64,000 nucleotides of DNA from Escherichia coli O127:H6 str. E2348/69 (GTDB lineage Bacteria; Pseudomonadota; Gammaproteobacteria; Enterobacterales; Enterobacteriaceae). Within the stretch, counting starts at the first letter, position 1. Every line of letters starts with the position of its first letter. Made by a program: the position numbers and the translations under genes. The stretch is from assembly GCF_000026545.1 (NCBI RefSeq), contig NC_011601.1. One strand, given 5' to 3'. The notes under the pieces are model-generated. The model did not search any database. It had not been told where the DNA came from and saw nothing but the letters and a program-made list of their open reading frames with translations. Shown here one piece after another: positions 9,121-59,621 of this stretch.

Positions 9121-11204
9121 CCAGGCCAGTAACGTTAACGGAACCCCATTTCAGCCAGCATACCCTGAACAAGTATGCTTCGCTGATGGCGCAGGGGAAC
9201 GGCTATCTTGGGCTTCGCGCCAGCCATGAAGAAGATTACACGCGCCAGACGCGCGGCATGTATCTGGCAGGGCTTTATCATCGGGCGGGGAAAAATGACA
9301 TCAACGAACTGGTGAACCTGCCTGACGTCATAGGGATGGAGATTACCTTGAATGGTGAACTTCTTGCGCTATCCCGCGAAACGTGGCAGCGCGAGCTTGA
9401 CTTCGCCAGTGGAGAATTACGTCGCAATGTCGTCTGGTCTTCAGCCAGCGGCGCACGTTATGCCATTGCCAGCCGTCGCTTTGTTTCGGCAGAACAACTG
9501 CCGCTGATGGCGCTGGAAATCAGCATTACGCCGCTGGACGCTGACGCGTCAGTGCTGATTTCAACAGGCATTGACGCCACGCAAACCAACCACGGACGAC
9601 AACATCTCGACGAAATCCAGATGCGGGTGTTTGGTCAGCATCTGATGCAGGGGATCTACACCACCCAGGATGGGCGCAGTGATGTGGCCATCAGCTGTTG
9701 CTGTAAGGTGAGCGGTGATGTGCAGCAATGCTATACCGCCAAAGAGCGCCGTTTACTGCAACATACCTGCGCGCAGCTTCACGCAGGTGAGACGTTGACG
9801 CTGCAAAAACTGGTGTGGATCGACTGGCGGGACGACAGACAAGCCGCTTTAGACGAATGGGGCAGTGCGTCGCTTCGTCAGCTTGAAATGTGCGCGCAGC
9901 AGAGTTACGACCAACTTCTTGCAGCATCAACAGAAAACTGGCGTCAATGGTGGCAGAAACGTCGTATCACGGTAAACGGCGGCGATGCGCACGATCAGCA
10001 AGCGTTAGATTATGCGCTTTATCACCTGCGCATCATGACGCCTGCCCACGATGAGCGCAGCAGCATTGCGGCGAAAGGTTTAACCGGCGAAGGCTACAAA
10101 GGCCACGTTTTCTGGGATACAGAAGTATTTTTGCTACCGTTCCATCTGTTTAGCGAACCGACGATTGCCAGAAGTTTACTGCGTTATCGCTGGCACAACT
10201 TGCCTGGCGCGCAGGAGAAAGCGCGACGCAACGGCTGGCAGGGCGCTCTGTTTCCGTGGGAAAGCGCGCGTAGCGGCGAAGAAGAGACGCCGGAATTTGC
10301 TGCCATTAACATTCGTACCGGGTTGCGGCAAAAAGTGGCCTCTGCGCAGGCGGAACATCATCTGGTGGCCGATATCGCCTGGGCGGTTATTCAATACTGG
10401 CGGACCATGGGGGATGAAAGTTTCATTGCTCATGAAGGCATGGCGCTACTTCTGGAGACGGCAAAGTTCTGGATTAGCCGCGCGGTGAGGGTTAACGACC
10501 GTCTGGAAATTCATGATGTTATTGGGCCAGACGAATATACCGAACATGTCAATAATAACGCCTTCACCAGCTATATGGCGTATTACAACGTCCAGCAGGC
10601 GCTGAATATCGCTCGTCAGTTTGGCTGTAGCGACGACGCGTTTATTCATCGTGCAGAAATGTACCTCAAAGAACTGCGGCTGCCAGAAATTCAGCCCGAC
10701 GGCGTTTTGCCGCAGGATGATTCGTTTATGGCTAAGCCGGTGATTAATCTGGCGAAATACAAAGCGGCGGCGGGGAAGCAAACCATTCTGCTGGATTATT
10801 CACGCGCAGAAGTGAACGAGATGCAGATCCTCAAACAAGCTGATGTGGTGATGCTCAATTACATGCTGCCGGAGCAGTTCTCAGCGGCATCGTGTCTTGC
10901 CAATCTGCAATTTTATGAACCGCGCACTATTCACGACTCGTCATTAAGTAAAGCAATCCACGGCATTGTTGCCGCACGCTGTGGCCTGCTGACCCAAAGT
11001 TATCAGTTCTGGCGCGAGGGGACTGAAATCGATCTTGGTGCTGATCCACATAGCTGTGATGACGGTATCCACGCTGCCGCAACTGGCGCTATCTGGCTGG
11101 GGGCGATTCAGGGTTTTGCCGGGGTGAGCGTGCGTGACGGTGAATTACATCTCAATCCGGCGTTACCTGAGCAGTGGCAACAGTTGTCTTTCCCTCTGTT
11201 CTGG
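9117..11204 (+). pseudogene. ycjT: Kojibiose phosphorylase (GH65), 5' portion, interrupted by IS insertion
   Basis: GH65-like ORF reads into the IS at 11205 and stops at 11243 inside it; native frame resumes at 12755. Confidence 0.8.
11196..11204. repeat. Target-site duplication (CTGTTCTGG), left copy
   Basis: Exact 9-bp direct repeat immediately flanks both ends of the IS (11196-11204 and 12755-12763). Confidence 0.75.
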
Positions 11205-55510: not shown

Positions 55511-55837
55511 ATGAAAAGAACATTACTTCTTTGTGCATTTCTTGTTGGCTTGGTAAGCAGCAATGTAATGGCATTGACTCTGGATGAAGCCAGAACTCAG
55601 GGGCGAGTAGGCGAAACATTTTATGGTTATCTGGTTGCGCTGAAAACAGATGCTGAAACTGAGAAATTAGTAACCGACATTAATGCCGAACGTAAAGCGA
55701 GCTATCAACAACTGGCAAAGCAAAATAATGTGTCGGTAGATGATATCGCGAAACTCGCCGGGCAAAAGCTTGTAGAACGGGCCAAACCCGGGGAATATGT
55801 ACAAGGGATAAACGGTAAATGGGTGCGAAAATTTTAA
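55511..55837 (+). CDS. ydbL: Periplasmic protein YdbL (DUF1318)
   Basis: ORF track starts at 55430; ATG 55511 gives MKRTLLLCAFLVGL... (108 aa). Confidence 0.8.
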   Translation: MKRTLLLCAFLVGLVSSNVMALTLDEARTQGRVGETFYGYLVALKTDAETEKLVTDINAERKASYQQLAKQNNVSVDDIAKLAGQKLVERAKPGEYVQGINGKWVRKF

Positions 55838-55970
55838 TAGCAAAACCGCAATATCGGGATAACGCTACAGGAGAAGACGATTAATCTATTTTCCGGAAAT
55901 AAGATGATTATTCAAAAATTCCTGCCAAATTGCCTTTTGCCCTGAAAAATGCATAATCAAATATCTGTTT

Positions 55971-56011
55971 TAACTAATTCGCGTTGCTGTACATGCAACG
56001 CGAATTAGTTA
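55971..56011. terminator. Bidirectional terminator: perfect 17-bp inverted repeat
   Basis: taactaattcgcgttgc / gcaacgcgaattagtta with 7-nt loop; right arm contains the feaR-remnant stop codon. Confidence 0.5.
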
Positions 56012-56346
56012 GCGGAATTTACGCCGATTCTCGCCTGGCGTCATCCCAAAGCGTTGTTTAAATACCGTTGAAAAATGACTCTGGTCGGAAAATCCCCAAT
56101 GAAAGCCAATGCCTGCCAGTTTTTCATCATCTGCGGCATGGCGAATCGCATCTGCACAAAAATCGAGACGACGGTTACGAATATATTGCGCGACCACCAA
56201 ACCTTTATCGGCAAACTTTATCAGCGCGTAGCGCCTGCTGCTGTAGCGTTCGTTAGTGAAAAAGATGAAACCTCGGTCGGTGAGCTGCCTTCGCCGGGTA
56301 GCCTGTATTTTCAACGTTTTGGCGGTTTGAATATTGAACAGGAGGT
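56009..56346 (-). pseudogene. feaR: AraC-family regulator FeaR, 3' remnant (HTH domain only)
   Basis: About 112 codons of AraC-type HTH C-terminus; frame opens at a stop at 56347-56349 and has no upstream continuation. Confidence 0.7.
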
Positions 56347-58051: not shown

Positions 58052-58061
58052 CACTTTCGTG
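58052..58061. repeat. Flanking direct repeat of IS copy B (CACTTTCGTG), left
   Basis: 10-bp identical sequence at 58052-58061 and 59612-59621 (9-bp TSD plus one coincident base). Confidence 0.6.
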
Positions 58062-59611
58062 CTGTCTCTTGATCAGATCTCCTGATCAAGAGACTTCATC
58101 ACCAGGTAACCCTCAACCATATCCTGAAGTCTGAACCAGCCATCCCACATGACTACCCAACCGGGGCGACCGGTGCGTTTGCTGTCATGCCATCGCCCCA
58201 GTTTCGCCAGTTTCAGACAGGCCCATTTCAGTGTCGGCATCTGTGACGGAAGCGGTTTTCCTTCCAGCTTAACCCACAGCAGTTTCCACTCTGTCGGCGT
58301 CAGTATTTTCTCACAGCTGTCATTTTGTGTTTCTTCACTGATACCGCCCTGCCGCAGGCCCAGCACCCGCACCGCGATAAACGCCTTGATAACCACCATG
58401 CGCTCGAGGTTATCCCGGGTCTGCATTCGCAGCGATTCCACACATGTACCACCACTTTTCCACGCCTTGTGGTATTCCTCTATCAGCCAGCGTCGCTCGT
58501 AATGGCTGACGATACGTCGCGCATCGGCGGCACTCGCCACTTTTTCTGACGTCAGCAGATGCCAGCAGGCGCCGTCCTCTGCCTGCTCCCGGCAACAGAC
58601 ATACGTGAGCGGGAGCGCCTGGCCGCTGTTGTCGGGATTTTTTATGCTGACTTCGCTGTAACTGATGAACATCCGGGCCTGGCGGGCTGCCCGCCCGCCT
58701 TTTTGCATCACATTCAGCGTGTGGCTTCCCGCGGTTGCCAGGACTTCCGGCAGTTCGAAGAGCTTGCCGGGTGCTTCTTCCAGCCGGCGATTCTGTGCTG
58801 CACGCACCACGAAGCGCTGCCCGTGGCTGACTTTATAATGCAGGTAATGCCAGATATCCGCTTCCCGGTCACAGACAGTGATTACCCGTTTCTGTATCTC
58901 CCCCAGCCGTTCGGCCATGCGCTCCGAAGCCTGCTGCCAGCGGTAACTTTCTTTTTCTTCATAGGGACGTTCTTTTCGCTGGTGCTTAACACCGTAGGTG
59001 TCCGTGGCACGACTCCAGCGCTGCTGTTCGATAAGACCGACTGGCAGGGCGCTGTCGGGGGCGTACATCAGGACAGAGTGAGCCAGCAGCCCGCGCGTCT
59101 TCGGGTTAGTGGTGGTATTCCCCAGGTCATCAGATGCCGTACTGTGACTGAAGTTAATGGTGGTGGTGTCTTCCAGCGCGAGGAGCAGCGGATGAGCCTC
59201 ACATGCCCTTACAGTGGCGGTAAATCCGGCTTCGGCAATGGCTTGCGGGGACACAGACGGGTTACGTATCAGGCGGTACGCACCTTCAACCTGAGCAGTG
59301 GACTGGGATGATTTCACAATAGAAAGACCTGCATGCTGAGCGAGAGAAGAGGCCAGTGACACAAGGCGTCGTGTACGACGCGGATCACCGAGACGGGCAT
59401 GTCCAAACTGCTCGTTAGCCCATGAATAACAATCAGAAAGTACCATAACAGACCCGAAGAAAATGAAATATAAGAGAAGATCAACGGGTGAGGAAAAAGT
59501 TCAAAAAATCGCTGCCGGGGAGGAAGGAAACTACCGGATGGAAAGAGTCCCCCTAAAGCAGACTGACAGACATCACAAATCCCCGGGTGGGGATTTGTGT
59601 ATAAGAGACAG
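58062..59611 (-). mobile_element. IS50-like insertion sequence, copy B, 1550 bp, inverted relative to copy A
   Basis: Inside end CTGTCTCTTGATCAGATCT at 58062-58080; outside end (rc CTGTCTCTTATACACAAAT) at 59593-59611; encoded proteins identical to copy A. Confidence 0.9.
58073..59446 (-). CDS. DDE transposase, Tn5 Tnp-like (457 aa)
   Basis: Protein identical to the transposase at 11370-12743. Confidence 0.9.
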   Translation of the reverse strand: MVLSDCYSWANEQFGHARLGDPRRTRRLVSLASSLAQHAGLSIVKSSQSTAQVEGAYRLIRNPSVSPQAIAEAGFTATVRACEAHPLLLALEDTTTINFSHSTASDDLGNTTTNPKTRGLLAHSVLMYAPDSALPVGLIEQQRWSRATDTYGVKHQRKERPYEEKESYRWQQASERMAERLGEIQKRVITVCDREADIWHYLHYKVSHGQRFVVRAAQNRRLEEAPGKLFELPEVLATAGSHTLNVMQKGGRAARQARMFISYSEVSIKNPDNSGQALPLTYVCCREQAEDGACWHLLTSEKVASAADARRIVSHYERRWLIEEYHKAWKSGGTCVESLRMQTRDNLERMVVIKAFIAVRVLGLRQGGISEETQNDSCEKILTPTEWKLLWVKLEGKPLPSQMPTLKWACLKLAKLGRWHDSKRTGRPGWVVMWDGWFRLQDMVEGYLVMKSLDQEI

Positions 59612-59621
59612 CACTTTCGTG
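59612..59621. repeat. Flanking direct repeat of IS copy B (CACTTTCGTG), right
   Basis: Matches 58052-58061. Confidence 0.6.

What the first reader, a model, noticed from the sequence alone, without database searches (positions are those of the whole stretch)
55971..56011. 17-bp perfect inverted repeat closing ydbL and the feaR remnant
The arms taactaattcgcgttgc and gcaacgcgaattagtta with a 7-nt loop form an unusually long, perfect stem for a terminator, and the feaR stop codon sits inside the right arm. It probably acts as a bidirectional terminator, but a stem this long could also be a protein binding site or a recombination hotspot.
Basis: seen in the sequence. Interest (0 to 1): 0.3.

Follow-up and report, generated by a model that had tools for sequence, protein, structure and literature searches.

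The report
E. coli-only perfect hairpin, weak terminator
The 17-bp perfect inverted repeat between ydbL and the feaR remnant is real and far beyond chance, but it is a young, E. coli-specific hairpin without a U-tract, so it is at best a weak helper at the transcripts' 3' ends and not a proper bidirectional terminator; it is an ordinary curiosity.

Summary
Arms 55971-55987 and 55995-56011 are 17/17 complementary with a 7-nt loop, and the feaR stop codon (56009-56011) forms the last 3 nt of the right arm. It is the longest perfect hairpin in the window; 60 simulated windows reached at most 13 bp.

The window is E. coli E2348/69. The element is single-copy and present in 4196 of 5426 complete E. 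coli genomes. It is absent outside E. coli proper. In Citrobacter, Leclercia, Yokenella and Silvania the ydbL and feaR stop codons abut, so the whole 171-bp spacer is a recent insertion.

Neither strand has a U-tract after the stem. Published K-12 data (Adams 2021) list no 3' end at the hairpin. They do list a Rho-dependent termination region 121 nt downstream on the + strand, with complete read-through when Rho is inhibited.

Stem pair 10 occurs as C-G (880 genomes), G-C (about 2,700), A-T (129) and a G.G mismatch (411). Pairing therefore tends to be restored, either by weak selection or by quasipalindrome template switching.

Best reading: a weak auxiliary 3' hairpin, vestigial on the feaR side in this strain. 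A functionless palindrome is the main rival. Interest is low.

The parts
55971..55987 (.). Left arm of the perfect inverted repeat (TAACTAATTCGCGTTGC). The outer 9 nt are AT-rich and the inner 8 nt GC-rich.
55988..55994 (.). 7-nt loop (tgtacat). In K-12 the first base is A, which adds an A-T pair and gives an 18-bp stem with a 5-nt loop.
55995..56011 (.). Right arm (GCAACGCGAATTAGTTA). Its last 3 nt are the reverse complement of the feaR stop codon.
55980..55980 (.). Left member of stem pair 10, paired with 56002. This is the only internal pair that varies in E. coli: C-G (this strain), G-C, A-T and a G.G mismatch.
56002..56002 (.). Right member of stem pair 10.
55838..56008 (.). 171-nt ydbL-feaR spacer. 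It is single-copy and specific to E. coli sensu stricto. Other genera have zero spacer, and a cryptic-clade Escherichia has an unrelated 75-nt spacer.
55511..55837 (+). ydbL, the last gene of the ydbH-ynbE-ydbL unit that reads toward the hairpin.
56009..56215 (-). feaR 3' remnant, a pseudogene that has lost its N-terminus and promoter. It is fused at 56215/56216 to a paaX 3' remnant.
56100..56165 (+). Approximate equivalent of the K-12 Rho-dependent termination region. K-12 position 1446501 corresponds to window position ~56132, antisense to feaR. The + strand RNA here has C>G.

Best explanation
This is a single-copy, E. coli-specific perfect palindrome at the feaR end of a recently acquired 171-bp spacer between the convergent ydbH-ynbE-ydbL unit and feaR. 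Transcribed from either strand it gives the same very stable stem-loop of about -26 kcal/mol. The inner 8 bp are GC-rich and the outer 9 bp AU-rich, and no U-tract follows. It is therefore not a canonical intrinsic terminator. Most likely it is a weak, auxiliary 3'-end hairpin. Polymerase mostly reads through it and is stopped by Rho 100-150 nt further on in the untranslated antisense RNA; this is shown for the + strand in K-12. By inference only, the hairpin at most pauses polymerase, helps termination when convergent polymerases collide, or slows 3'->5' exonuclease trimming. Its symmetry is kept by paired changes at stem pair 10. Because one internal mismatch costs only 2-7 kcal/mol of about 26, these are more plausibly produced by quasipalindrome template switching than by strong selection (inferred). 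In E2348/69 feaR is a promoter-less remnant, so the feaR-side role is vestigial. The hairpin and the Rho site are then all that separates ydbL from the same-strand paaY.
For: Anatomy and position are shown, and the excess over chance. The element is single-copy and is not on phages or plasmids. No U-tract is present and the terminator scan does not call it. In K-12 the hairpin lies at 1446340-1446380. Adams et al. 2021 (PMC7815308) list no curated 3' end there. They do list a Rho region at 1446501(+) with -BCM 54->14 and +BCM 87->91 reads. That bounds Rho-independent termination at the hairpin to roughly <=30%. The + strand RNA after ydbL has C>G, and the - strand RNA beyond the spacer has C/G 1.3-2.1, which is rut-like. 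The element is dispensable: there is zero spacer in Citrobacter, Leclercia, Yokenella and Silvania, no hairpin in a cryptic-clade Escherichia, the hairpin is deleted in about 1,230 E. coli genomes, and one strain lacks 15 nt of the right arm. Pairing tends to be kept: C-G in 880 genomes, A-T in 129, G-C in about 2,700, and the G.G intermediate in 411. Conservation of perfect IRs in E. coli by template switching is the published model (PMC5941160). The model weak bidirectional terminator ynaJ-uspE gives only 9-39% release without collisions, and it shows a BCM-sensitive region in the same data set.
Against: No direct evidence shows that the hairpin does anything. No 3' end has been mapped at it. 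Exonuclease protection and collision-assisted termination are inferred from other systems. The BCM comparison uses 800-nt windows with low read counts, and BCM-induced transcription starting inside feaR cannot be excluded. There are no data for the - strand. Formal covariation support is weak: 15 of 17 pairs never vary and the covariation score was reached by 49 of 500 shuffles. About 10% of genomes carry the G.G mismatch and about 32% a C.A loop-closing mismatch on the + strand RNA, so perfection is not required.
Confidence: 0.5

Rival explanations
1. The element is a functionless palindrome. It arose with the spacer insertion in the E. coli ancestor and has no role. Replication template switching between the arms keeps it perfect or nearly so, which mimics compensatory evolution.
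For: The element is lineage-specific and young. It has been lost in about 23% of genomes, and one strain has a 15-nt arm deletion. Mismatched forms persist in hundreds to over a thousand genomes. No 3' end is mapped in K-12. The arms diverge at about the same rate as the flanking spacer: 3 of 41 positions versus 6-8%. Template switching is the published explanation for conserved perfect IRs in E. coli.
Against: The element sits exactly at the convergent 3' boundary and abuts the feaR stop. It has the GC-inner, AU-outer layout typical of two-way terminators. It is retained in 4193 of the 4196 genomes that keep the region.
Confidence: 0.3
2. The element is an efficient bidirectional intrinsic terminator that ends both the ydbL and feaR transcripts at the hairpin.
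For: A stable symmetric hairpin lies between convergent genes. If only the inner 8 bp form first, the 3' tail on both strands is AAUUAGUUA, which is AU-rich and pairs with the 5' flank. This resembles A-tract/U-tract two-way terminators.
Against: Only 4 U occur in the 9-nt tail, and 1-2 U in the 8 nt after the full stem, so the scan does not call it. K-12 has no 3' end there, and read-through is complete with Rho inhibited. The element is absent in sister genera with the same gene pair.
Confidence: 0.1
3. The element is a DNA-level protein-binding site, for example a PaaX-like operator or roadblock next to the fea/paa cluster.
For: The dyad symmetry is perfect. In this strain each arm reads TAATTCGCG, which matches 8 of 9 positions of TGATTCGYG as seen in the K-12 Pa and Pz operators. 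The published PaaX site is TGATTC-N27-GAATCA (PMC9493321).
Against: The spacing is N21, not N27-28, so the half-sites are about half a helical turn out of phase. The variable position is the hexamer's last C, which is G in about 75% of genomes including K-12, a strain that has PaaX. Strains with the best match, such as this one, lack paaX. Hexamer-level matches of this quality occur by chance about 6 times in 20 kb. The element is not at a promoter.
Confidence: 0.04
4. The element is a recombination or fragility hotspot that drives the local rearrangements.
For: One strain has a 15-nt deletion that removes the right arm. One strain has IS1 inserted 6 nt upstream of the hairpin. The neighbourhood shows several independent fea-paa deletions.
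Against: The common deletion junctions are not at the palindrome: 56215/56216 here, a 252-nt feaR remnant in other B2 strains, and spacer nt 62 in APEC/UPEC. A 41-bp palindrome is well below the length I recall as unstable in E. coli (SbcCD-sensitive, over 100 bp). 4193 of 4196 genomes keep it intact.
Confidence: 0.05

Closest known systems
Bidirectional terminators between convergent E. coli genes (SEnd-seq class of Ju et al. 2019; model ynaJ-uspE, bioRxiv 10.1101/2022.10.23.513370)
   Same: Both lie between convergent genes and encode one hairpin usable on both strands. Both are weak as stand-alone intrinsic terminators. In the same K-12 data set both show a bicyclomycin-sensitive region in the antisense of the downstream gene.
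   Different: ynaJ-uspE has an 8-bp GC stem, a 4-nt loop and a flanking A-tract/U-tract. This element has a 17-bp stem whose outer half takes the place of the tracts, with only 4 U in 9. No overlapping 3' ends have been mapped here.
REP elements acting as 3'UTR terminator/stabiliser hairpins (bioRxiv 10.64898/2026.03.23.713779)
   Same: Both are extragenic palindromes without a U-tract, often sit between convergent genes, show partly Rho-dependent attenuation, and vary between strains.
   Different: REPs are multi-copy with a family consensus. This element is single-copy with an unrelated sequence.
Perfect short inverted repeats conserved by template switching (Lavi et al. 2018, PMC5941160)
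   Same: It is a perfect IR far beyond chance in a non-coding region of E. coli, and orthologues differ by paired changes with an imperfect intermediate still segregating.
   Different: A 17-bp arm is at the long extreme. Here three Watson-Crick states and the intermediate are all seen at one pair within one species.
PaaX operator TGATTC-N27-GAATCA
   Same: The dyad hexamers match 5/6 each (8/9 with the CGYG extension), and the element adjoins the fea/paa cluster.
   Different: The spacing is 21 rather than 27-28, the key C is polymorphic, the element is not at a promoter, and paaX is absent from this strain.

Membership tests
Canonical intrinsic (Rho-independent) terminator | GC-rich stem with a short loop | tested here: met
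   The inner 8 bp CGCGTTGC/GCAACGCG contain 6 G-C pairs and the loop is 7 nt. The full stem of 17 bp is longer than usual.
Canonical intrinsic (Rho-independent) terminator | U-tract (>=5 U in 8) directly 3' of the stem | tested here: not met
   The + strand has GCGGAAUU (2 U) and the - strand AAACAGAU (1 U). With the inner stem only, the tail is AAUUAGUU (4 U). The scan does not call it on either strand.
Canonical intrinsic (Rho-independent) terminator | Rho-independent RNA 3' end at the site in vivo | tested here: not met
   K-12 Term-seq shows no curated 3' end at 1446340-1446380. With BCM, reads go 87->91 across the region. Expression is low and there are no - strand data, so this is not decisive.
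Bidirectional terminators of convergent gene pairs (Ju et al. 2019 class) | Located between convergent genes, with one hairpin shared by both strands | tested here: met
Bidirectional terminators of convergent gene pairs (Ju et al. 2019 class) | Overlapping, uniform 3' ends of both transcripts at the hairpin, independent of Rho | tested here: inconclusive
   Adams 2021 lists no 3' ends there and shows BCM-sensitive read-through on the + strand. The class's own model ynaJ-uspE is also BCM-sensitive in that data set.
REP/BIME repetitive extragenic palindromes | Many copies per genome sharing a consensus | tested here: not met
   There is one place per genome. The second 'place' is the palindrome matching its own reverse strand. 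No other copy occurs in the window.
PaaX operator | TGATTC and GAATCA half-sites | tested here: inconclusive
   E2348/69 has TAATTC/GAATTA (5/6 each) and K-12 has TAATTG/CAATTA (4/6 each). Comparable chance hits are common.
PaaX operator | Half-site spacing of about 27 bp, at a regulated promoter | tested here: not met
   The spacing is 21 bp. The real Pa and Pz sites have 27 and 28 bp. The element lies at the 3' ends of genes.
Perfect IR maintained by quasipalindrome template switching | Perfect IR in excess of chance, with paired changes and imperfect intermediates among orthologues | tested here: met
   Formal covariation is weak because only one pair varies.
Perfect IR maintained by quasipalindrome template switching | Demonstrated templated conversion of one arm from the other | not testable with these tools
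   This needs a reversion or fluctuation assay, or a phylogeny-aware reconstruction on all genomes.
Known RNA families (Rfam 15) | Match at or above the gathering score | tested here: not met
   Only a generic hairpin match was found, to a miRNA precursor model at 28.6 bits against a gathering score of 90.

The most novel reading that the evidence does not exclude
The element is a terminator or insulator caught early in its birth. In sister genera the ydbL and feaR stop codons abut and termination depends wholly on Rho or on polymerase collisions inside the opposing gene. In this reading E. coli acquired a 171-bp spacer, and a symmetric hairpin evolved in it. That hairpin is under RNA-level selection, as suggested by three Watson-Crick states at pair 10 and by the U.G tolerated on the feaR-sense strand. 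It would insulate the two units, acting together with Rho.
Probability: 0.15. Interest if true: 0.45.

Novelty: new member of a known kind. Interest (0 to 1): 0.2.

Why it matters
The significance is modest.

First, it is a caution for annotation. A long perfect hairpin between convergent genes should not be labelled a terminator from its stem alone. Here the U-tract is missing and published data indicate Rho does the work.

Second, E. coli carries a natural allelic series at one stem pair: C-G, G.G, G-C and A-T, in hundreds of genomes each. This is a ready-made system for separating RNA-level compensatory selection from template-switch correction of quasipalindromes.

Third, in E2348/69 and the other genomes that share its fea-paa deletion (258 genomes in all), the hairpin and the Rho site in the feaR remnant are all that separates ydbL from the same-strand paaY-pdxI. 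Read-through may therefore now drive those genes.

Tried and rejected
- **Rfam.** A permissive scan gave only sub-threshold generic hairpin matches.
- **Repeat or mobile element.** No other copy exists in the window. There is one place per E. coli genome. Nothing independent was found on plasmids or phages; the hits there are mis-filed chromosomal pieces.
- **Conservation outside E. coli.** 59 ydbL loci from other species carry no homologous hairpin.
- **An sRNA promoter feeding the hairpin.** TTGCCT-16-CATAAT at 55930-55957 is at chance level in the scan. Its -10 element is CATAGT in every other sampled strain.
- **Small ORFs in the spacer.** A 13-codon ORF and a 19-codon ORF spanning the hairpin were read by eye. 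Neither has a convincing Shine-Dalgarno sequence, the replacements are non-conservative, and K-12 RefSeq does not annotate them.
- **PaaX operator.** Rejected on spacing, polymorphism and the chance rate. The 15-bp consensus I recalled could not be verified.
- **Literature.** The TERMITe and SMRT-Cappable-seq supplements do not mention ydbL or feaR. A joint search for ydbL and feaR found nothing relevant.

Full report
**The observation**

The window matches the E. coli E2348/69 chromosome at 100% identity. The reported inverted repeat is exactly as described. The arms at 55971-55987 and 55995-56011 are 17/17 complementary, with the 7-nt loop tgtacat between them. ydbL, the last gene of ydbH-ynbE-ydbL on the + strand, ends at 55837. 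The - strand carries a 207-nt 3' remnant of feaR (56009-56215). Its stop codon forms the outermost 3 nt of the right arm.

This is the longest perfect hairpin-type repeat in the 64-kb window. In 60 simulated windows the longest arm was 13. As RNA the bare hairpin is about -26 kcal/mol on either strand. In a 101-nt context it scores z = -5.4 on the + strand and z = -3.6 on the - strand.

**Anatomy**

The stem has a GC-rich inner 8 bp (CGCGTTGC) and an AU-rich outer 9 bp (TAACTAATT). No U-tract follows the stem. The + strand continues GCGGAAUU and the - strand AAACAGAU. If only the inner stem forms, the tail on both strands is AAUUAGUU, with 4 U. The terminator scan called four other sites nearby but not this one. 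Rfam gives only a sub-threshold generic hairpin match.

**Distribution**

- The element is single-copy and present in 4196 of 5426 complete E. coli genomes. 4193 of those carry it at full length.
- The spacer has no second copy in E. coli genomes and no independent copy on plasmids or phages.
- About 1,230 genomes lack the hairpin. APEC/UPEC-type strains keep ydbL plus 62 nt of spacer, followed directly by an autotransporter gene.
- One strain has lost 15 nt of the right arm.
- One strain has IS1 inserted 6 nt upstream of the hairpin.

Outside E. coli proper the hairpin does not exist. In a cryptic-clade Escherichia with feaR 91% identical, homology starts just past the feaR stop codon, which is TGA there, and the 75-nt spacer is unrelated. 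In Citrobacter, Leclercia, Yokenella, Silvania and a Klebsiella MAG the ydbL and feaR stop codons abut (TAATTA, TGATCA or TAGTTA), leaving no spacer at all. The 171-nt spacer and its hairpin are therefore a young, species-specific acquisition. The convergent pair functions elsewhere with no intergenic terminator.

**Variation within E. coli**

Fifteen of the 17 pairs are invariant among the sampled haplotypes. Pair 10 (55980/56002) occurs in four states:

| State of pair 10 | Genomes |
|---|---|
| C-G (this strain; exact 61-mer) | 880 |
| G-C, K-12 type | up to ~1,410 |
| G-C, B1 type | ~1,300 |
| A-T | 129 |
| G.G mismatch | 411 |

- The K-12 type also has a loop change that makes an 18-bp stem.
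- The B1 type also has a TG->CA change. This turns the loop-closing pair into C.A on the + RNA and U.G on the - RNA.
- The perfect stem therefore holds in about 58% of carriers. About 90% have a Watson-Crick pair at position 10.

Three Watson-Crick states plus the intermediate at a single pair is suggestive of pairing being restored. Formally it is weak evidence, because the covariation score was reached by 49 of 500 shuffles.

The G.G mismatch costs only 2-7 kcal/mol out of about 26. Selection to repair it should therefore be weak. Quasipalindrome template switching converts imperfect repeats to perfect ones in E. coli, and it is the published explanation for conserved perfect IRs (PMC5941160; PMC7202029). 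It is at least as good an explanation as selection.

**Experimental evidence from K-12**

The K-12 hairpin lies at NC_000913.3 1446340-1446380. Adams et al. 2021 (PMC7815308) curated Term-seq 3' ends in LB at two densities and in M63. None falls at 14462xx-14465xx, and none is assigned to ydbH, ynbE, ydbL or feaR.

Their DirectRNA-seq with and without bicyclomycin lists a Rho termination region at 1446501 on the + strand, antisense to feaR and 121 nt past the hairpin. Reads upstream and downstream were 54->14 without the drug and 87->91 with it. The Rho score is 4.03 and p = 1.3e-5.

With Rho inhibited the + strand reads through completely. This bounds stand-alone termination at the hairpin to roughly <=30%. 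The calculation is mine from those counts, and it assumes no BCM-induced initiation downstream. The composition fits this picture. The + strand RNA has C>G from the spacer through the feaR remnant, and the - strand RNA is C-rich in antisense ydbL.

Three caveats apply. Expression is low, the windows are 800 nt, and there are no - strand data. In addition, the accepted model 'bidirectional terminator' ynaJ-uspE shows a similar BCM-sensitive region in the same table. In vitro it releases only 9-39% of polymerases without head-on collisions. A weak, collision-assisted role for the ydbL-feaR hairpin is therefore not excluded.

**Interpretation**

The best-supported reading is a weak auxiliary 3' hairpin at a boundary where Rho does the actual termination. 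Possible minor roles are pausing, collision-assisted release or slowing exonuclease trimming. All three are inferred and none is shown.

In E2348/69 feaR has no promoter or 5' part, so that side is vestigial. Downstream of the hairpin on the + strand now lie a paaX remnant and an intact paaY. Read-through could therefore reach them.

The main rival is that the palindrome has no function and simply persists, self-corrected by template switching. An efficient bidirectional intrinsic terminator is unlikely.

A PaaX-like operator was considered. Each arm reads TAATTCGCG, compared with TGATTCGYG in the real Pa and Pz sites. However, the spacing is 21 rather than 27-28 bp, the key C is G in most strains including the PaaX-bearing K-12, and similar hexamer pairs arise by chance about 6 times in 20 kb.

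A recombination hotspot is not supported, because the common deletion junctions lie elsewhere.

**Comparison with known systems and verdict**

The element resembles the convergent-gene bidirectional terminators and REP-type 3' hairpins in how it might work. It fails the defining tests for canonical intrinsic terminators (no U-tract, no Rho-independent end), for REPs (single copy) and for PaaX operators (spacing). It does fit the class of perfect short IRs maintained in E. coli non-coding DNA.

It is a new, previously unannotated member of known kinds, not a new mechanism. Interest is low. The useful by-products are the allelic series at pair 10 and the finding that the whole spacer is E. coli-specific.

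Noticed in passing
window 21001-21035: A second long perfect hairpin (16-bp arms AATATGCCTGATGGTG / CACCATCAGGCATATT, 3-nt loop) lies exactly between the convergent stop codons of the ORFs ending at 20995 (+) and 21039 (-). I take these to be tyrR and tpx; the names come from the encoded C-terminus and ORF size, matched to the adjacent tpx/tyrR pair in the K-12 tables, not from an annotation of this window. It also lacks a U-tract. In K-12, Adams 2021 lists a strong tpx-side 3' end at 1388306(-) and a Rho region at 1387858(-) antisense to tyrR. This is the same pattern as at ydbL-feaR.
   Followed up: partly
window 11204-12755 and 58061-59612: Two 100% identical 1552-nt copies of an IS4-like element lie in inverted orientation 45.3 kb apart. 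The 58-kb copy is annotated as ISEc13. They bracket the whole tyrR...ydbL...pdxI segment, which could be a substrate for a large inversion.
   Followed up: partly
window 56215/56216: This is the deletion junction fusing the feaR 3' remnant (207 nt) to a paaX 3' remnant. The deletion removes feaR 5', feaB, tynA and paaZ through most of paaX. 258 genomes (this strain included) match >=80% of a 1.3-kb query spanning this junction. Other B2 strains have a different junction (252-nt feaR remnant fused to a paaY fragment), and APEC/UPEC strains delete from spacer nt 62. The fea-paa region has therefore been lost several times independently.
   Followed up: partly
loci L011, L012, L014, L039, L042, L048, L049, L051, L055, L061 (about 1780-1830): In Citrobacter, Leclercia, Yokenella, Silvania and a Klebsiella MAG the convergent ydbL and feaR genes have directly abutting stop codons (TAATTA, TGATCA, TAGTTA). 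There is no intergenic DNA at all.
   Followed up: yes
window 55930-55957: A sigma-70-like TTGCCT-16-CATAAT lies just upstream of the hairpin. The good -10 element is private to E2348/69, and all other sampled strains have CATAGT. If active it would make a tiny hairpin RNA of about 50 nt.
   Followed up: no
L076 2500-2540 (strain 21319) and L068 340-365 (strain PSS-16): These are rare variants at the palindrome. One is a 15-nt deletion removing most of the right arm. The other is an IS1 insertion 6 nt upstream of the left arm.
   Followed up: yes
window 55994-55995 versus 56002: Four combinations of the loop-closing TG/CA change and the pair-10 right-arm G/C change exist among haplotypes only 7 nt apart (K-12, L069, L066, L071). 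This implies either recombination within the hairpin or recurrent paired mutation.
   Followed up: no
window 55945-56016, + strand: On the + strand RNA the 17-bp stem can be extended by 5 more pairs (UCUGU/GCGGA, including two G.U) across a 2-nt bulge. This gives a helix of about 22 bp, long enough in principle for RNase III. Not tested.
   Followed up: no
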